This document shows, one piece after another, positions 4,102-48,920 of a stretch of DNA of 64,000 bases. Numbering within the stretch: position 1 is the stretch's first letter; every line of letters begins with the position of its first letter. The translations under genes and the position numbers were made by a program. Source of the DNA: Escherichia coli O127:H6 str. E2348/69. GTDB lineage: Bacteria; Pseudomonadota; Gammaproteobacteria; Enterobacterales; Enterobacteriaceae. The notes under the pieces were generated by a model. The model saw nothing but the letters and a program-made list of their open reading frames with translations. It had not been told where the DNA came from and did not search any database. The stretch is taken from assembly GCF_000026545.1 (NCBI RefSeq), contig NC_011601.1; one strand, given 5' to 3'.

Positions 4102-4796
4102 GAAGCAGAAACCATCAGATAGCCGCGACCACGCAGGGTTTTAAACCACGGGTGACCATCTTTACGATCCGGCAGTTTACGACGCAGGTTGGAAATGTGC
4201 ATATCGATAGCGCGGTCGAAAGGCGTCAGGCGCTTGCCCAGCACTTCCTGGCTTAAATGCTCACGGGAAACCACCTGACCCAGATGCTGTGCCAGCAAAT
4301 AGAGCAGGGTAAACTCAGTACCGGTTAACTCCAGTGTTTGCCCGTCGAAGCTGGCTTCCTGGCGACCAGGATTGAGACTTAAGGCATCAACTTCCAGTGT
4401 CGGTGAACCGTTGTCGTTGTTTTGCTGTTGTTCGCTCCAGTGCGAACGGCGCAGGATCGCGCGAATACGTGCCACCAGCTCACGATCATTAAACGGTTTT
4501 GGGAGATAGTCATCTGCGCCCAGCTCAAGCCCGAGAACGCGATCAAGTTCACTGCCGCGCGCCGTCAACATAATGACAGGCGTCTGGTGTGTCTGGCGAA
4601 GTGCTTTTAATGTGTCGATACCATTTTTCTTCGGCATCATTACATCAAGCAAAAGTAAATCAATGCTGTCGTCCAGAAGATCAAGCGCCTGTTCCCCATC
4701 GTGGGCAACAATCACGTTGAAGCCTTCCATCTCGAGCAGCTCCTTTAATAGGGAAGTCAGCTCTCGGTCATCATCAACTAACAGGATTTTATTCAT
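4098..4796 (-). CDS. cpxR: OmpR-family response regulator CpxR
   Basis: 232-aa ORF beginning MNKILLVDDDRELTSLLKELL; receiver plus winged-helix output domain. Confidence 0.95.
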   Translation of the reverse strand: MNKILLVDDDRELTSLLKELLEMEGFNVIVAHDGEQALDLLDDSIDLLLLDVMMPKKNGIDTLKALRQTHQTPVIMLTARGSELDRVLGLELGADDYLPKPFNDRELVARIRAILRRSHWSEQQQNNDNGSPTLEVDALSLNPGRQEASFDGQTLELTGTEFTLLYLLAQHLGQVVSREHLSQEVLGKRLTPFDRAIDMHISNLRRKLPDRKDGHPWFKTLRGRGYLMVSAS

Positions 4797-4851
4797 TGTT
4801 TAAATACCTCCGAGGCAGAAATTACGTCATCAGACGTCGCTAATCCATGAC

Positions 4852-4866
4852 TTTACGTTGTTTTAC
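4852..4866. promoter_or_regulatory. CpxR-P binding box in the divergent cpxP / cpxRA promoter region
   Basis: Plus strand TTTAC-GTTGT-TTTAC is the reverse complement of the CpxR consensus GTAAA-N5-GTAAA. Confidence 0.75.
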
Positions 4867-4945
4867 ACCCCCTGACGCATGTTTGCAGCCTGAATCGTAA
4901 ACTCTCTATCGTTGAATCGCGACAGAAAGATTTTGGGAGCAAATG

Positions 4946-5446
4946 ATGCGCATAGTTACCGCTGCCGTCATGGCCTCAACGCTGGCAGTCAGTTCATTAA
5001 GCCACGCTGCTGAAGTCGGTTCAGGCGATAACTGGCATCCGGGTGAAGAACTTACGCAGCGCAGTACGCAGAGCCATATGTTCGACGGCATAAGTTTAAC
5101 CGAACATCAGCGTCAGCAGATGCGAGATCTTATGCAACAGGCCCGGCACGAACAGCCTCCTGTTAATGTTAGCGAACTGGAGACAATGCATCGCCTTGTC
5201 ACCGCAGAAAATTTTGATGAAAACGCTGTGCGTGCACAGGCAGAAAAAATGGCGAACGAGCAAATAGCTCGTCAGGTTGAGATGGCAAAAGTCCGCAACC
5301 AAATGTATCGCCTGTTAACGCCGGAGCAGCAAGCGGTTTTAAACGAGAAACATCAACAACGAATGGAGCAGTTGCGCGACGTGACGCAATGGCAAAAAAG
5401 TTCATCGTTGAAGCTATTGAGTAGTAGCAACTCACGTTCCCAGTAG
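4946..5446 (+). CDS. cpxP: Periplasmic Cpx pathway inhibitor/adaptor CpxP
   Basis: ORF 4943..5446; start [21 protein letters not shown] (signal peptide) gives 166 aa; divergent from cpxRA with a CpxR box in the intergenic region. Confidence 0.93.
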
Positions 5447-5486
5447 TAAACCCTGTTTTCCTTGCCATAGACACCATCCCTGTCTT

Positions 5487-5513
5487 CCCCCACATGATGT
5501 GGGGGTTTTTTTA
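5487..5513 (+). terminator. Rho-independent terminator downstream of cpxP
   Basis: CCCCCACAT-G-ATGTGGGGG stem followed by TTTTTTT. Confidence 0.8.
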
Positions 5514-42511: not shown

Positions 42512-43417
42512 ATGTCTGCCGCAGGAAAGAGCAACCCACTGGCAATCAGTGGCCTGGTTGTGCTCACACTTATCTGGAGTTATAGCTGGATTTTCATGAA
42601 GCAAGTCACCAGCTACATCGGTGCCTTCGACTTCACCGCCTTACGCTGCATTTTCGGTGCTCTCGTTTTATTCATCGTCCTTTTATTACGTGGTCGCGGA
42701 ATGCGCCCGACGCCGTTTAAATACACCTTAGCCATTGCCCTGTTACAAACCTGCGGGATGGTTGGCCTGGCACAGTGGGCGCTGGTCAGCGGCGGAGCGG
42801 GGAAGGTGGCAATCCTGAGCTATACCATGCCGTTCTGGGTGGTAATTTTCGCCGCGTTGTTTCTCGGTGAACGCCTGCGACGTGGGCAATATTTCGCGAT
42901 ACTGATTGCCGCTTTCGGCTTATTTTTGGTGTTGCAGCCGTGGCAACTCGATTTCTCTTCGATGAAAAGTGCCATGCTGGCAATCCTCTCCGGTGTGAGT
43001 TGGGGGGCGAGCGCGATTGTTGCTAAACGTCTGTATGCCCGCCATCCGCGCGTGGATTTATTGTCGCTAACATCCTGGCAGATGCTGTATGCGGCGCTGG
43101 TGATGAGCGTGGTCGCTTTACTGGTGCCGCAACGTGAAATTGACTGGCAACCCACCGTGTTCTGGGCGCTGGCCTACAGTGCGATTCTGGCGACAGCGCT
43201 GGCCTGGAGCTTATGGTTGTTTGTATTGAAAAACTTGCCTGCCAGTATTGCCAGCTTAAGCACACTGGCCGTTCCCGTTTGCGGCGTACTCTTTTCCTGG
43301 TGGCTGCTCGGTGAGAATCCGGGGGCAGTTGAAGGTAGCGGTATTGTGCTGATTGTACTGGCACTGGCGCTGGTGAGCCGTAAGAAAAAAGAAGCCGTCA
43401 GTGTAAAAAGGATCTGA
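42512..43417 (+). CDS. yijE: EamA-family (DMT) inner-membrane transporter YijE
   Basis: ORF 42446..43417; internal start [26 protein letters not shown] gives 301 aa; ten predicted TM helices. Confidence 0.88.
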
Positions 43418-43443
43418 ATTTTTTCTTCATGTGGGGCGATCGC

Positions 43444-44061
43444 TTATTTAGCAAAATACCGATAGTGCCCCACCATCCGCCAGCTAAACAGTACATCTTC
43501 TTCCTGCGCGCCTGCGCCAATGTTATGTATCACCAGCGGCGTACCGTCGCGGGCGAAGCCATCTGACACCACCCCAATATGTGCCAGCCCGTTATCTAAT
43601 CGCCAGGAGACAATATCGCCCGCTTGATAGTCACCGGGGGTCTTGCTGGTGGGGCGTGTTTTATCGTGGCGGGTAAACCAGGTTTCCAGATTAGGCACCC
43701 GACGGTGATCGATGTTGCTGTCCGGGCGCTTTAACTGCCATTTTTGCGGGTACTCAGCAAAATTCTTCGCCATATCTTCGTGAACCAGTTTCTGCAAATC
43801 GACCTTCTGGCTGCGCAATGCTCGGATCACCACATCAGAACAAACACCGCGTTCTTGCGGGACATCACCGCCAGGATAGGTAAGCCGCACATACGCCGGA
43901 TCGTAAAATAGCGTGCTGCCGATTTGCTGTCTGGCACCGTCCGCGATGGCAAGGTTGGTGTTGGCCTGGATTTGTACCACGGTTGGTTGAATGGCGGGAG
44001 ATTTTAAGGAGTAACTGGTAAATACCGTCAGAAGACTGAACAACGCCAGTGAAGCTTTCAT
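43444..44061 (-). CDS. yijF: Secreted DUF1287-family protein YijF
   Basis: ORF 43444..44160; internal start MKASLALFSLLTVFTSYSLKSPA (signal peptide) gives 205 aa. Confidence 0.85.
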   Translation of the reverse strand: MKASLALFSLLTVFTSYSLKSPAIQPTVVQIQANTNLAIADGARQQIGSTLFYDPAYVRLTYPGGDVPQERGVCSDVVIRALRSQKVDLQKLVHEDMAKNFAEYPQKWQLKRPDSNIDHRRVPNLETWFTRHDKTRPTSKTPGDYQAGDIVSWRLDNGLAHIGVVSDGFARDGTPLVIHNIGAGAQEEDVLFSWRMVGHYRYFAK

Positions 44062-44248
44062 CTGTTTCGTCCGTGAAAAAATATTCACAGATTCGACCTT
44101 CAGGGCTAACGATTGTTCTGTGGAGAAAATGTCCAGAAGCGGATAAAAAAAACCGAACAAGGTGGAAGTTTCAGATTACTGGCACAGCGTGCCGGATACG
44201 GCGTGATGAACTGCACCCCAAATGTTGGACATAATCTGACATCTGAAG

Positions 44249-44779
44249 GTGCAGTTTATGAAACATTCATTTGAAGTAAAACTTGCCGCTGTAAATCATT
44301 ACCTGGCTGGTCATGCAGGCATCATTTCTACGGCAAAACTCTTTCAACTTTCTCACACCAGCCTCTCACACTGGATTAATCTTTTTCTTCTTCACGGTCC
44401 TCGGGCACTGGATTGCAGACACAAGCGTAGCTATTCTCCTGAAGATAAACTTTGCGTGGTTCTTTATGCTCTCGGGCATTCTGAGTCTCTACCCCGGGTA
44501 GCTGCCCGGTTTAACATTCCCAGCCACAACACGGTTAAAAACTGGATAAAAGGCTACCGCAAATCTGGTAATGAGGCCTTTATCAGGTGCAGGAAGGAGA
44601 AAAGCATGACCCGTTCTGATGATACCCATGAAAACGAGGCAAACATGACGCCGGAAGAGATGAAGAATGAGCTGCGTTATCTTCGCGCAGAAAATGCATA
44701 TCTGAAAGCCATGCAGGAGCATCTTCTGGAAAAAAAGCGCCAGGAGCTGGAGAAAAAACGAAAGTCATCCAGAGCCTGA
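44249..44779 (+). CDS. IS3-family transposase OrfA (HTH DNA-binding subunit)
   Basis: 176-aa ORF with N-terminal HTH and C-terminal leucine-zipper-like region (NELRYLRAENAYLKAMQEHL); architecture resembles IS150 InsJ. Confidence 0.8.
   Translation: MQFMKHSFEVKLAAVNHYLAGHAGIISTAKLFQLSHTSLSHWINLFLLHGPRALDCRHKRSYSPEDKLCVVLYALGHSESLPRVAARFNIPSHNTVKNWIKGYRKSGNEAFIRCRKEKSMTRSDDTHENEANMTPEEMKNELRYLRAENAYLKAMQEHLLEKKRQELEKKRKSSRA
44729..44735 (+). promoter_or_regulatory. Programmed -1 ribosomal frameshift heptamer A AAA AAG of the IS3-family element
   Basis: Heptamer lies in the orfA frame ~45 nt before the orfA stop; the -1 frame is open from here into the OrfB-like sequence. Confidence 0.65.
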
Positions 44780-45321
44780 GGTACGGACACTGCCAGTCTG
44801 ACCTGTTAAAGGCCGCAGGGCTGGCCAGAAGCACGCTGTACTACCAGCTGTCACTGCAGAAGGCTAAGGACAAGTATGCTGATGTGAAACAGCTCATAGC
44901 CTCCATCTTCCATGAACACCGGGGATGTTATGGGTACCGGCGGATCCATTGTGAGCTTCAGAAAAGAGGTCTTAAGTTCAGTGGCAAAACGGTGCGAAAA
45001 CTGATGCAACAGCTCGGCCTGAAGTCTCCTGTGCGCCTGAAGAAATACCGGTCTTACCGGGGAAATATGGGACTCGCTGCAGAAAATATCCTTCAGCGAC
45101 AGTTCAAAGCGGAAGCTCCCTGTGAGAAATGGGTGACAGATATCACCGAATTCAGGGCTGGCGGACAAAAACTGTACCTGTCCCCGATACTTGATTTGTT
45201 TAACGGGGAAATCGTGGCGTGGGAAACGGCCTGCAGGCCTACAGAGGAGCTGGTGAAGCGGATGTTAAATAAGGGGCTGGAAAGCCTTGCTGAAGGGGAG
45301 AAACCGCTGCTCCACAGTGAT
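44729..45321 (+). pseudogene. IS3-family transposase OrfB (DDE integrase core), N-terminal segment interrupted by an IS110-family insertion
   Basis: -1 frame is open from the A AAA AAG slippery site; translation ...YGYRRIHCELQKRG...KWVTDITEF...PLLHSD resembles IS150 InsK and then abruptly diverges at residue D. Confidence 0.75.
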
Positions 45322-46696
45322 AGTAATAATGCCGGTATCAGTTTTTATCATCACTCTGTTTGCTGTTTAACCAGACTGGTGTGATTACTGATGCAGTGAA
45401 GACCTTCCCGCATCCTGACTCACACAGCGATCGACCCTTTGTGTCCTGCCCTGGACCTGTCGGTTGCCGGAAGCGCCTTCATGCGAGGCGTCTCCTCACC
45501 GATGCGCGTGACTCAAGAAGGGCCTGACGGTTTGTCTCGTTACTGTCCTGTCCGGGTTATCTGTCTGGAGATTCAACTCTGTTTCCTCACAGGAGCTCTG
45601 TTATGGCAGGTAAAGTTACGGAAACCGCTGTTGTGGGTGGCGTGGATACACATAAAAATCTGCACGTTGCCGCTGTCGTAGATCAGAACAATAAAGTTCT
45701 GGGGACCCAGTTTTTCTCCACAACACGGCAAGGTTACCGGCAGATGCTGGCATGGATGACTTCGTTTGGGGCATTAAAGCGAATTGGTGTTGAGTGTACA
45801 GGCACCTATGGATCAGGTCTGCTTCGCTATTTACAGAATGCCGGGTTAGACGTTCTTGAGGTGACTGCGCCAGATCGGATGGAGCGACGCAAACGGGGTA
45901 AAAGTGACACGATTGATGCTGAATGTGCCGCTCACGCCGCATTCTCCGGAATAAGAACCGTCACACCCAAAACGCGCAATGGCATGATTGAGTCTCTGCG
46001 GGTATTAAAAACTTGCCGAAAAACAGCAATATCAGCCCGCAGAGTCGCTCTCCAGATTATCCATTCCAATATTATCTCTGCCCCGGATGAATTACGTGAA
46101 CAGCTCAGAAATATGACGCGTATGCAGCTCATCAGGACTCTGGGATCCTGGCGGCCTGATGCCAGTGAATACCGCAATGTTACCAACGTTTATCGTATTT
46201 CATTAAAGTCCCTTGCCCGACGCTATCTCGAGTTACATGACGAAATCGCTGATTTGGATGTCATGATTGCGGCAATTGTCGATGAGCTGGCGCCTGAACT
46301 GATTAAACGTAATGCTATTGGATACGAAAGCGCTTCGCAGTTGCTGATCACGGCAGGAGACAATCCCCAACGATTAAGATCAGAATCAGGTTTTGCGGCA
46401 CTGTGTGGTGTCAGCCCTGTTCCCGTATCTTCAGGAAAAACGAATCGTTATCGACTTAACCGGGGTGGAGATCGTGCTGCAAATAGTGCACTTCACATCA
46501 TTGCCATCGGACGTTTGCGAACTGACGATAAAACGAAGGAATATGTCGCCAGACGAGTAGCGGAAGGGCATACAAAAATGGAAGCAATACGCTGCCTGAA
46601 GCGCTATATCTCACGCGAAGTTTATACATTACTGCGTAATCAAAACAGGCAGATCAACAGCATCCCGATAACGGCTTGACTCTTAGAAGGGCGTCC
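45322..46696 (+). mobile_element. IS110-family insertion sequence (about 1.37 kb) nested inside the IS3-family orfB
   Basis: Boundaries inferred from the exact interruption of the IS3 OrfB reading frame (PLLHSD | QGWHYR); contains a ~280-bp non-coding left end and a single transposase gene; no terminal inverted repeats evident, as is typical for IS110 family. Confidence 0.7.
45603..46679 (+). CDS. IS110-family transposase (DEDD/RuvC-like N-terminal domain plus C-terminal transposase domain)
   Basis: 358-aa ORF MAGKVTETAVVGGVDTHKNLHVAAVVDQNNKVLG...GVECTGTYGSGL...; the VGIDxxK / ECTG motif pattern typical of IS110/IS621-type transposases. Confidence 0.85.
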   Translation: MAGKVTETAVVGGVDTHKNLHVAAVVDQNNKVLGTQFFSTTRQGYRQMLAWMTSFGALKRIGVECTGTYGSGLLRYLQNAGLDVLEVTAPDRMERRKRGKSDTIDAECAAHAAFSGIRTVTPKTRNGMIESLRVLKTCRKTAISARRVALQIIHSNIISAPDELREQLRNMTRMQLIRTLGSWRPDASEYRNVTNVYRISLKSLARRYLELHDEIADLDVMIAAIVDELAPELIKRNAIGYESASQLLITAGDNPQRLRSESGFAALCGVSPVPVSSGKTNRYRLNRGGDRAANSALHIIAIGRLRTDDKTKEYVARRVAEGHTKMEAIRCLKRYISREVYTLLRNQNRQINSIPITA

Positions 46697-47012
<316 letters not shown>

Positions 47013-47100
47013 GTGAACGCCTTATCCGGCCTACAAAAGTACGTAAATTTACTATATTGCAGAGATTGCGTAGGCCTGATAAGCGTAGCGCATCAGGCAA
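47013..47100. repeat. REP/BIME repeat cluster immediately right of the IS insertion (yijF-gldA intergenic)
   Basis: GTGAACGCCTTATCCGGCCTAC...TGCGTAGGCCTGATAAGCGTAGCGCATCAGGCA. Confidence 0.75.
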
Positions 47101-47143
47101 TTTTGCGTTCAAACTCCCGGACAAGCCGGGAGTTTGGAGTAGG

Positions 47144-48247
47144 TTATTCCCACTCTTGCAGGAAACGCTGACCATACTGGTCGGCTACCAGCAGTGCGGC
47201 GTAAACCTGATCTGGTGTCGCGCCGCCAGGCATGTTGTGGATGGTTTCACCTTCTGCACATGCCGCTTCTGCCACAATTCGCATTTTCGCCGGGACATCT
47301 TCTTTAATATCCAGTTGAGCGAGAGTTATTGGCAAACCTACCGCATGGCTAAGCGCAGCTACGGTTTCGATTTCCTCCACCGGCGCGTTTTCCAGAACCA
47401 GCTGCGTCAGCGTACCGAATGCCACTTTTTCACCATGATAATAGTGATGCGCGTCCGGGATAGCGGTCAGGCCGTTATGCACTGCGTGCGCCGCCGCCAG
47501 CCCGCCGCTTTCAAAACCAACACCGCTCAAATAGGTGTTCGCTTCAATCACGCGTTCCAGCGCCGGAGTCACTACATGCTGTTCGGCGGCAAGCATCGCT
47601 TTTTCGCCTTCTTCCAGCAGCGTGTTGTAGCACAGTTCTGCCAGTGCCAGCGCCGCCTGGGTGCACTTGCCGCCCGCCATGGTGGTCGCGCCGCTACGAG
47701 AGCAAGCACGCGCTTCAAACCAGGTTGCCAGCGCATCGCCGATACCCGCCGCTAACAGACGTGCAGGTGCGCCAGCGACGATTTTGGTGTCGACAATGAC
47801 CATATTCGGGTTATTTGGCAACAGCAGATAGCGGTCAAACTCACCATCATCGGTGTAGATAACAGACAATGCGCTGCATGGTGCATCGGTAGAGGCGATA
47901 GTCGGTGCGATCGCTACCGGAACACCCATGAAATGTGCCAGTGCTTTGGCAGTATCGAGGGTTTTTCCGCCACCGATACCGAGAATTGCGCCACACTGCG
48001 CAGTCTCCGCGATGCCACGCAGACGGTCGATCTCATTTTGCGAACATTCACCGCCAAACGGCGCAATTTCTACTACCAGTCCAGCATCTTTAAAACTTTT
48101 CTCGACAGTGGATTGAGCAAAACCTAAAACAAATTTGTCACCCACCACTAACCAGCGTTCTGCCAGCGGCTTCAGGTATTCGCCCAGACGATTAATCACA
48201 TCAGCGCCCTGGATGTATTTACCCGGTGATTGAATAATGCGGTCCAT
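47144..48247 (-). CDS. gldA: Glycerol dehydrogenase
   Basis: ORF 47144..48286; canonical start [24 protein letters not shown] gives 367 aa ending ...RFLQEWE. Confidence 0.93.
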
Positions 48248-48257
48248 AATTGCTCCT

Positions 48258-48920
48258 TTAGAGATGAGTAGTGCCAAATGCGGCATTCCAGTCGTGTTCG
48301 AACTTCTCTATAGCTGACTCTACCGCAGGGGTGTTGAGCATTTGTTGCGCTACATCTAAGGGCAGGGTGATGGATTCACATCCTGCCAGTAAACAGTCCA
48401 GCGCCTGACGCGGCGTTTTAAAGCTGGCCGCCAGCACCATGCTTTCTGGTGCGTGCATTTCTAACAGCGCTTGCAGCTCCTGAACCGTACGAATGCCGTC
48501 ACCGCCCTGGGCGTCGACGCGGTTAACATACGGAGCAACGTATTTTGCCCCTGCCAGTGCGGCTAATAACCCTTGTGCGGCGCTATATACAGCGGTGCCA
48601 AGTGTAGTAATACCCTCTTTTTTCAGCATTTTAATGGCGGCAAGACCTTCGGAAGTTACCGGGATTTTCACCACAATGCCCGGAATGGCGTCGCGCAGGC
48701 GCTTCGCTTCTTCCACCATACCCTGCGCGTCACGACTCATGGTCTGAGCAAACAAAATACCCTCATCACCAATCGCTTTTTGCAAACGCGGCAGCACTTC
48801 CCAGATGGACTCCTTGCTGGCCGCGATAATGCTCGGGTTAGTTGTCACCCCGGCAATCGGGAATATGCGTGCCAGACGTTCGACTTCTGCGACGTTAGCG
48901 GTGTCCAGATACAGTTCCAT
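48258..48920 (-). CDS. fsaB: Fructose-6-phosphate aldolase 2
   Basis: 220-aa [34 protein letters not shown]; transaldolase-like fold. Confidence 0.93.

What the first reader, a model, noticed from the sequence alone, without database searches (positions are those of the whole stretch)
47013..47100. IS insertion abuts a REP/BIME cluster
The right end of the IS3-family element is followed directly by a REP palindrome (GTGAACGCCTTATCCGGCCTAC...). REP clusters are known preferred targets for some insertion sequences. The GTGA flanking both ends of the element is compatible with a short target duplication. This locates the ancestral insertion site within the yijF-gldA intergenic repeat array.
Basis: partly seen in the sequence, partly recalled or inferred. 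Interest (0 to 1): 0.25.

Follow-up and report, generated by a model that had tools for sequence, protein, structure and literature searches.

The report
IS1397 inserted inside a REP hairpin
A known insertion sequence, IS1397, has landed in the tip of a repetitive extragenic palindrome between yijF and gldA and duplicated four bases (GTGA), which is the documented behaviour of this element, so the finding is correct but ordinary.

Summary
The IS3-family element at 44207-47012 is IS1397, the known REP/BIME-specific insertion sequence of E. coli. It does not merely abut a REP. It splits one Y-type REP at its apex. The left arm (GCCGGATACGGCGTGA) ends at 44206 and the right arm (GTGAACGCCTTATCCGGCCTAC) starts at 47013.

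Empty sites in other E. coli strains (A25, K-12, O157, isolate 127) read GCCGGATGCGGCGTGAACGCCTTATCCGGCCTAC, with a single GTGA. The target duplication is therefore exactly 4 bp, and the boundaries are unambiguous.

The rest of 47013-47100 is a 35-nt linker plus an inverted Z1-type REP, an arrangement that reads as BIME-1-like. It lies downstream of gldA and upstream of yijF.

I checked IS1397 at 12 further chromosomal loci. Every copy sits in a REP apex; ten have a clear 2-4 bp duplication and two have flanks too diverged to score. The same yijF-gldA REP carries IS1397 in 11 of 5,426 complete genomes, with at least two different junction registers.

This IS1397 copy is itself interrupted by ISEc21 (IS110 family) at the HSD|QG codons of its transposase gene. 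That is the published seekRNA-guided target of ISEc21.

Nothing here is new. Interest is low.

The parts
43444..44061 (-). yijF (DUF1287 protein). Its start codon lies 145 bp left of the IS.
   Evidence: RefSeq annotation of the identical E2348/69 locus and of K-12; ORF list.
44189..44206 (+). Left (5') arm of the split Y-type REP/PU, GTGCCGGATACGGCGTGA. Its last 4 bases are TSD copy 1 (GTGA, 44203-44206).
   Evidence: Sequence; REP half-site match at 44191-44203; contiguous with the right arm in empty sites.
44207..45321 (+). IS1397 left part (IS positions 1-1115 of 1432). It contains IRL TGAACTGCACCCCAAATGTTGGACA, orfA (44258-44779) and the 5' part of orfB, ending ...LLHSD.
   Evidence: 98-100% identity to RefSeq copies annotated as IS1397. 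Pfam HTH_28, HTH_21 and rve. Translation.
45322..46695 (+). Nested ISEc21 (IS110 family, 1374 bp). It has a 281-nt upstream non-coding region (45322-45602) and a DEDD transposase gene (45603-46679, 358 aa). There is no target duplication.
   Evidence: Boundaries from alignment to the intact IS1397 of E2348/69. Annotated as ISEc21 in RefSeq hits. Pfam DEDD_Tnp_IS110 and Transposase_20. Published target.
46696..47012 (+). IS1397 right part. orfB resumes at QGWHYR... (stop at 46978-46980). IRR ends ...TGTCCAGGTTTTGGGGTTCAGTTCA.
   Evidence: 100% identical to the E2348/69 IS1397 over 317 nt. Pfam rve_2 and rve_3. Translation. IRs match at 21 of 25 positions.
47013..47034 (+). Right (3') arm and tail of the split Y-type REP, GTGAACGCCTTATCCGGCCTAC. 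Its first 4 bases are TSD copy 2 (GTGA, 47013-47016).
   Evidence: half-site at 47018-47030.
47035..47069 (.). BIME linker (L-like motif), AAAAGTACGTAAATTTACTATATTGCAGAGATTGC.
   Evidence: Sequence. Conserved across empty sites, with two to four substitutions relative to K-12. A weak sub-threshold Rfam ES036 hit is probably due to the repeat.
47070..47098 (-). Second REP, Z1-type, in inverted orientation: GTAGGCCTGATAAGCGTAGCGCATCAGGC.
   Evidence: Sequence. Hairpin at -12.9 kcal/mol, z -3.0. Conserved in all BIME-bearing empty sites.
47108..47139 (-). GC-rich 13-bp hairpin immediately downstream of the gldA stop. It is terminator-like but has no clear U tract.
   Evidence: Fold at -21.6 kcal/mol, z -5.75. 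Invariant in all strains, including those without the BIME.
47144..48247 (-). gldA (glycerol / L-1,2-propanediol dehydrogenase). Its 3' end faces the BIME.
   Evidence: RefSeq annotation of the identical E2348/69 locus; ORF list.

Best explanation
The yijF-gldA spacer originally held a REP pair that reads as a BIME-1-type element: a Y-type REP, a 35-nt linker and an inverted Z1-type REP. It lies downstream of gldA and about 130 bp upstream of yijF.

IS1397 is a 1,432-bp IS3-family element with an OrfA/OrfB DDE transposase made by programmed frameshift. Its transposase is known to select REPs. It transposed into the apex of the Y-type REP. Staggered cuts four bases apart, around G-T-G-A (the last stem base plus three loop bases), were filled in and produced the GTGA duplication. 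The two REP arms are now 2.8 kb apart. Shown here: the boundaries, the duplication, the intact ancestral REP, and apex targeting at 13 loci. Inferred from the literature: the transposase itself reads the REP.

Later, ISEc21, an IS110-family element guided by its own seekRNA/bridge RNA, inserted into IS1397 orfB exactly between the codons HSD and QG. [quoted passage not shown] The insertion left no duplication and inactivated this IS1397 copy.

The insertion is probably neutral for the host. It lies beyond the gldA hairpin and the Z1 REP, and it leaves the 128 bp proximal to yijF intact. This last point is inference.
For: Identity:
- RefSeq copies 98-100% identical are annotated 'IS3-like element IS1397'.
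- Length without ISEc21 is 1115+317 = 1432 bp.
- The inverted repeats match at 21 of 25 positions and end TG...CA.
- Pfam finds HTH and rve domains.

Target and duplication:
- The empty-site alignment shows one intact REP with a single GTGA.
- The rejoined REP folds at -21.4 kcal/mol, z -5.9, and the duplicated bases sit at its apex.

Specificity:
- At 12 other loci IS1397 also splits a REP apex: yaeF-nlpE, downstream of rrf, yjbB-pepE, nhoA-yddE, cdd-sanA, mntH-ypeC, torD-cbpM, flhA-rayT, ruvB-znuB, fepA-entD, sbp-pfkA and ysaA-avtA.
- The targets include both Y and Z2 types. Ten copies have scorable 2-4 bp duplications and two have diverged flanks.
- The same yijF-gldA REP is occupied in 11 of 5,426 genomes. 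Junction registers are GTGA, GAAC and TGA, which implies repeated independent hits.

Literature:
- IS1397 inserts specifically within REPs, and the transposase determines the specificity (PMC1525189; PMC3184786).

ISEc21:
- The insertion lies between ...LLHSD and QGWHYR..., with no duplication.
- The same junction occurs in IS1397 and other IS3 members in 417 genomes.
Against: Nothing contradicts the main account. Four caveats apply.
- The primary IS1397 papers (Clement 1999; Wilde 2001, 2003) were not readable here. 'Inserts into the PU loop with a 3-4 bp duplication' therefore rests on secondary citations, my own recollection and my own 13-locus survey.
- The survey loci were chosen by similarity to the window's IS plus flank. 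That biases them towards the same REP type and orientation, though not towards being inside a REP.
- The window is 100% identical to E2348/69 (CP059840.2) over 43 kb outside the IS. Yet three RefSeq E2348/69 assemblies lack ISEc21 at this locus, and one has a slightly different IS1397 interior. The nested part could be stock variation or an assembly issue.
- Any effect on yijF or gldA expression is untested.
Confidence: 0.95

Rival explanations
1. The IS inserted without target preference and lies next to a REP by chance. The GTGA match is a coincidental 4-mer.
For: A 4-bp match has a 1/256 chance. REPs are common in E. coli intergenic DNA, with 7 other full REPs in this 64-kb window.
Against: REPs occupy only about 0.5% of the window. 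The two flanks rejoin into a perfect consensus REP with a single GTGA in empty sites. IS1397 is in a REP apex at 13 of 13 independent loci.
Confidence: 0.01
2. The REP-like half-sites belong to the mobile element itself, as in an IS with REP-like termini or a RAYT/REPtron-type unit, and are not a pre-existing target.
For: REP halves flank every copy. One copy lies next to a rayT gene.
Against: Strains lacking the IS have the whole REP at the same place. Different copies are flanked by different REP types (Y or Z2) and different loop bases. The element's conserved termini are the TGAACTG...CAGTTCA inverted repeats.
Confidence: 0.01
3. The transposition happened in another lineage. The occupied allele, or the ISEc21-bearing interior of the IS, reached this genome by homologous recombination or gene conversion between IS1397 copies or between strains, not by a local transposition event.
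For: RM14723 has the identical GTGA junction but 13 flank differences. The window's IS1397 interior at positions 519-611 matches copies from DLL7555 and UPEC132, not the E2348/69 copy at this same locus. All of the window's differences from E2348/69 over 43 kb fall inside the IS.
Against: This does not change what the structure is, because the duplication still records an original transposition into this REP. The ISEc21 here has two private SNPs (45657, 46121), and no identical donor copy was found in 5,426 genomes.
Confidence: 0.3
4. The nested ISEc21 at this particular locus is an assembly artefact: repeated IS1397 copies were resolved wrongly. The true locus would carry a plain IS1397, as in the other E2348/69 assemblies.
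For: Three RefSeq E2348/69 assemblies have IS1397 without ISEc21 here. Two of them have the composite 96 kb away, at yjbB-pepE.
Against: The window's composite is not a copy of the yjbB-pepE composite. It differs at more than 20 positions in the IS1397 arms. The junctions are clean and lie at the canonical ISEc21 target.
Confidence: 0.15

Closest known systems
IS1397 (IS3 family) insertions in palindromic units of BIMEs in E. coli (Bachellier 1997; Clement 1999; Wilde 2001, 2003; cited in PMC1525189 and PMC3184786)
   Same: Same element at 98-100% identity. Same 1,432-bp length, inverted repeats and OrfA/OrfB organisation. Same target, the apex of a REP/PU. Same short duplication.
   Different: Nothing essential differs. 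This copy is dead because ISEc21 splits orfB. The yijF-gldA site is simply one more occupied REP, present in 11 of 5,426 complete genomes.
ISEc21 (IS110 family) targeting of IS3-family transposase genes via seekRNA (Siddiquee et al. 2024, PMC11187229)
   Same: 358-aa DEDD transposase and an upstream non-coding region. [quoted passage not shown] No target duplication.
   Different: The host IS here is IS1397. The paper names ISCfr6, ISEc92 and ISEc93 as examples. It synthesised its ISEc21 from an E2348/69 record (LT903847.1), so this host range is implicit.
IS621 (IS110 family) and ISKpn1 (IS3 family), other REP-targeting ISs
   Same: Both use REPs as safe-haven targets in intergenic DNA.
   Different: IS621 uses a bridge RNA and inserts at the 3' side of the REP, outside the inverted repeat. 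ISKpn1 prefers Klebsiella-type PUs. IS1397 targets the apex, and its specificity is attributed to the protein.

Membership tests
IS1397 (IS3 family) | Nucleotide identity to IS1397, and a length of about 1.43 kb | tested here: met
   98-100% identical to RefSeq copies annotated 'IS3-like element IS1397'. Length is 1115+317 = 1432 bp once ISEc21 is removed.
IS1397 (IS3 family) | Imperfect terminal inverted repeats ending 5'-TG...CA-3' | tested here: met
   IRL and IRR match at 21 of 25 positions: TGAACTG[C/A]ACCCCAAA...GGACA.
IS1397 (IS3 family) | orfA (HTH) and orfB (DDE/rve) joined by programmed -1 frameshift | tested here: met
   Pfam finds HTH_28 and HTH_Tnp_1 in orfA, and HTH_21, rve, rve_2 and rve_3 in the orfB fragments. 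Intact relatives are annotated 'programmed frameshift'. Here orfB is interrupted, so the copy is non-autonomous.
IS1397 (IS3 family) | Insertion into the apex of a REP/PU with a short (3-4 bp) target duplication | tested here: met
   The empty site shows a 4-bp GTGA duplication at the REP apex. The same pattern occurs at 12 other loci.
REP/PU and BIME (E. coli) | An imperfect palindrome of about 35 bp matching the GCC(G/T)GATGCG(G/A)CG...CG(T/C)CTTATC(C/A)GGCCTAC consensus, and extragenic | tested here: met
   The rejoined site GCCGGATACGGCGTGAACGCCTTATCCGGCCTAC matches the consensus. It folds at z -5.9 and lies between the yijF and gldA coding sequences.
REP/PU and BIME (E. coli) | Two PUs in opposite orientation separated by a conserved linker (BIME-1 = Y + L + Z1) | tested here: met
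   Y PU at 44189-44206/47013-47034, 35-nt linker, and inverted Z1-like PU at 47070-98. The Y/Z1/L typing follows consensus sequences recalled from the literature, not a database match.
REP/PU and BIME (E. coli) | IHF binding in the L linker (BIME-1/RIP) | not testable with these tools
   The K-12 linker has AAATTCAATATATTG. The window and B2-type strains have AAATTTACTATATTG, a poorer match to the IHF consensus as I recall it. Binding was not measured.
ISEc21 (IS110 family) | DEDD transposase (PF01548 + PF02371), no terminal inverted repeats, no target duplication | tested here: met
   Pfam hits. Exact 1,374-bp insertion with no duplicated or ambiguous base. No inverted repeat is apparent between the printed end sequences; no formal repeat scan was run.
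ISEc21 (IS110 family) | [quoted passage not shown] | tested here: met
   Junction ...LLHSD | QGWHYR.... Published target. The same junction occurs in several IS3 members.
ISEc21 (IS110 family) | An upstream NCR encoding a seekRNA complementary to both target strands | tested here: inconclusive
   6-nt matches to the target flanks lie in the NCR at 45394-45399 (CAGTGA) and 45411-45416 (CATCCT). Their order is the one described for ISEc21. The k-mers are short, and no RNA model was built.

The most novel reading that the evidence does not exclude
The yijF-gldA Y-type REP may be a recurrent IS1397 hot spot. It appears to have been hit independently at least twice, in the same orientation but in different registers (GTGA, GAAC, possibly TGA). 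Within the single E2348/69 clone this IS copy is polymorphic: ISEc21 is present or absent, and the IS1397 interior is mosaic. If so, seekRNA-guided inactivation of one IS by another, and IS-IS gene conversion, would be occurring on the timescale of laboratory stocks. That would give three nested layers of site-specific mobile DNA: REP, then IS1397, then ISEc21.
Probability: 0.3. Interest if true: 0.25.

Novelty: already known. Interest (0 to 1): 0.1.

Why it matters
The finding matters little beyond correct annotation. It is a clean example of a known rule: IS1397 uses REP hairpin tips as safe intergenic landing sites. It also shows a second known rule: ISEc21 uses a conserved stretch of IS3-family transposase genes as its RNA-guided target.

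Two practical points follow. The occupied site and the nested ISEc21 could serve as lineage or stock markers for E2348/69-like strains. The locus is also a compact natural case of three nested site-specific repeats.

Tried and rejected
- **Rfam scan of 43400-48300.** It returned only a sub-threshold ES036/CssrF hit in the BIME linker (22.9 bits against a gathering score of 37.6, E 0.39). I treat it as repeat-derived noise.
- **Promoter/terminator scan of the yijF upstream region.** It found nothing, so it gives no handle on expression effects.
- **Primary IS1397 papers (PMC94167, PMC169884, PMC95333).** None is held. I relied on secondary citations and my own survey.
- **K-12 reference record.** It lists no REP feature here, so there is no curated REP name.
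- **MAFFT alignment of the composites.** It mis-aligned the ISEc21-free E2348/69 copy around the junction. I took boundaries from the pairwise alignments instead.
- **BH100 MG2014 'GA' junction.** I discounted it as a probable 2-nt assembly error, because the MG2017 assembly of the same strain is 100% identical to the window's right junction.
- **Orientation bias.** IS1397 has IRL next to the GATGCG arm at 11 of 13 loci. I did not pursue this, because the loci were chosen by similarity to the window's flank, which biases orientation.
- **Metagenome and GTDB scans.** I did not run them, because the answer did not need them.

Full report
**What is in the sequence**

- Its left end is TGAACTGCACCCCAAATGTTGGACA.
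- Its right end is TGTCCAGGTTTTGGGGTTCAGTTCA.
- These form 25-bp imperfect inverted repeats that match at 21 of 25 positions.
- Immediately left of it lies ...GTGCCGGATACGGCGTGA, and immediately right lies GTGAACGCCTTATCCGGCCTAC...

GTGA occurs on both sides, at 44203-44206 and 47013-47016. The neighbouring bases differ, so the direct repeat is exactly four bases.

**Identity of the IS**

Megablast against 5,426 complete E. coli genomes shows the element is IS1397. Copies 98-100% identical are annotated 'IS3-like element IS1397 family transposase' with a programmed frameshift.

Pfam finds HTH domains in orfA (44258-44779). It finds HTH_21/rve and rve_2/rve_3 in two separated orfB fragments.

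Alignment to the intact copy in E2348/69 shows the window's element is IS1397 (1115 + 317 = 1432 bp) interrupted by a 1,374-bp insert at 45322-46695.

**The empty-site test**

I built the predicted empty site, using both flanks with one GTGA, and searched with it.
- 5,231 of 5,426 genomes have yijF and gldA adjacent with no IS.
- The best match is strain A25, at 99.8% over 800 nt.

Alignment of A25, K-12, O157:H7 and isolate 127 shows one uninterrupted sequence at the junction: GTGCCGGATGCGGCGTGAACGCCTTATCCGGCCTAC, with a single GTGA. This confirms the duplication and the boundaries.

It also shows that the IS does not sit beside a REP. It splits a Y-type REP into two arms.
- The rejoined REP folds into a 12-bp interrupted hairpin (-21.4 kcal/mol, z -5.9).
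- The right half alone does not fold (z -0.5).
- The duplicated GTGA is the last stem base plus three loop bases.

**The rest of 47013-47100**

After the right REP arm (47013-47034) comes a 35-nt linker (47035-47069). Then comes an inverted Z1-type REP, GTAGGCCTGATAAGCGTAGCGCATCAGGC (47070-47098; z -3.0). This is the Y-L-Z1 layout that I know from the literature as BIME-1.

A GC-rich hairpin (47108-47139, z -5.75) and the gldA stop codon (47144) follow. Both genes are on the minus strand. The BIME therefore lies downstream of gldA and upstream of yijF, whose start codon is at 44061.

**Is REP targeting more than chance?**

The window holds seven other full REPs, so REPs cover about 0.5% of the sequence.

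I retrieved IS1397 copies at 12 other chromosomal loci in other strains: yaeF-nlpE, downstream of rrf, yjbB-pepE, nhoA-yddE, cdd-sanA, mntH-ypeC, torD-cbpM, flhA-rayT, ruvB-znuB, fepA-entD, sbp-pfkA and ysaA-avtA.
- Every copy splits a REP of Y or Z2 type at its apex.
- Ten have scorable duplications: AAC (three loci), TGC, TAA, TGT, GCTA, GTGA, TTAA and one 2-bp AA.
- Two have diverged flanks that could not be scored.

This agrees with the literature. IS1397 inserts specifically within REPs of E. coli, and the transposase is held responsible for the specificity (PMC1525189; PMC3184786). I could not open the primary papers. The statement that insertion is into the PU loop with a 3-4 bp duplication therefore rests on my recollection plus this survey.

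**Distribution of this particular insertion**

Both junctions are present in 11 of 5,426 genomes, always in the same orientation. The junction register is not always the same.

| Strain | Duplication |
|---|---|
| Window, E2348/69, RM14723 | GTGA |
| 377323_2f | GAAC (shifted by 2 bp) |
| Z1323HEC0016 | TGA |

The same REP has therefore probably been hit more than once. A 2-bp 'GA' junction in one BH100 assembly is probably an assembly error, because the other BH100 assembly matches the window exactly.

**The nested element**

The 1,374-bp insert is ISEc21, an IS110-family element.
- It encodes a 358-aa transposase (45603-46679) with DEDD_Tnp_IS110 and Transposase_20 domains.
- It has a 281-nt upstream non-coding region.
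- It lies exactly between the IS1397 orfB codons ...LLHSD and QGWHYR..., with no duplicated base.

This is the published behaviour. Siddiquee et al. [quoted passage not shown] They showed that a seekRNA from the upstream non-coding region guides insertion without a duplication.

In the genome collection, ISEc21 occurs at at least 80% query coverage in 417 genomes. It sits in IS1397 and in other IS3 members (IS911, ISEc31, ISEc52). The match extends only about 11-14 nt into the flanks.

Six IS1397::ISEc21 composites at six different loci share the same junction. Short matches to the target flanks lie in the non-coding region at 45394-45399 and 45411-45416. These are suggestive only.

**An oddity left open**

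Outside the IS, the window is 100% identical to E2348/69 (CP059840.2) over 43 kb. All differences lie inside the IS: five SNPs and a 3-bp indel at IS1397 positions 382-611, plus the ISEc21 insert.
- Three RefSeq E2348/69 assemblies have a plain IS1397 at this locus.
- Two of them carry a composite at yjbB-pepE instead.
- The window's composite is not a copy of that one.

The cause could be real stock-to-stock variation with gene conversion between IS copies. It could also be a problem in how the repeated IS copies were assembled. I cannot tell which.

**Verdict**

The refinements are as follows.
- The IS is IS1397.
- It splits rather than abuts the REP.
- The duplication is exactly GTGA at the hairpin apex.
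- The IS is itself interrupted by ISEc21 at that element's canonical target.

All of this is established biology, so novelty is 'already known' and interest is low.

Noticed in passing
window 45322-46695: [quoted passage not shown] This matches the published seekRNA-guided target. Six composites at six different loci in other strains share the junction.
   Followed up: yes
window 44588-44817 and 45322-46695, compared with L017 (E2348/69 CP059840.2): The window is 100% identical to E2348/69 over 43 kb. The exceptions are 5 SNPs and a 3-bp indel inside IS1397, plus the ISEc21 insert. Three RefSeq E2348/69 assemblies lack ISEc21 at this locus. This could be stock polymorphism with gene conversion, or an assembly issue.
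   Followed up: partly
L015 (377323_2f) and L016 (Z1323HEC0016), yijF-gldA junctions: The same REP carries IS1397 with different duplications (GAAC, TGA) in other strains, always in the same orientation. This suggests independent hits on one hot-spot REP.
   Followed up: partly
L006 (strain E67), yijF-gldA spacer: In a subset of genomes the BIME is replaced by a different repeat about 57 bp longer (CCCTCTCCCCTTTGGGGAGAGGGTTAGGGTGAGGGG...). It looks like a boxC-type element.
   Followed up: no
window 47035-47077: A weak, sub-threshold Rfam hit to the ES036 (CssrF) sRNA (22.9 bits against a gathering score of 37.6, E 0.39) lies on the BIME linker. It probably reflects repeat similarity.
   Followed up: no
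window 47045-47059, compared with K-12 (L003): The BIME linker reads AAATTTACTATATTG here and in A25 and isolate 127. K-12 and O157 read AAATTCAATATATTG. The K-12 form is closer to the IHF consensus as I recall it, so IHF binding may differ between lineages.
   Followed up: no
window 44197: The left REP arm has A (GGATACGG) where the empty-site strains and other occupied strains have G (GGATGCGG). The substitution is shared only with E2348/69 and turns a G-U pair into A-U in the hairpin.
   Followed up: no
L019 (strain R6), flhA-rayT spacer: An IS1397 copy sits in a REP directly next to rayT, the REP-associated tyrosine transposase gene.
   Followed up: no
L008 (UPEC132) 4530-5496: A second, frameshifted IS110-family transposase gene lies about 200 bp downstream of the IS1397::ISEc21 composite, after the 5S rRNA gene. 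This forms a small cluster of site-specific ISs.
   Followed up: no
13 IS1397 loci: At 11 of 13 loci IRL faces the GATGCG arm of the REP. Only two Z2-type REPs are occupied in the opposite sense. The sample is biased by how the loci were chosen.
   Followed up: no
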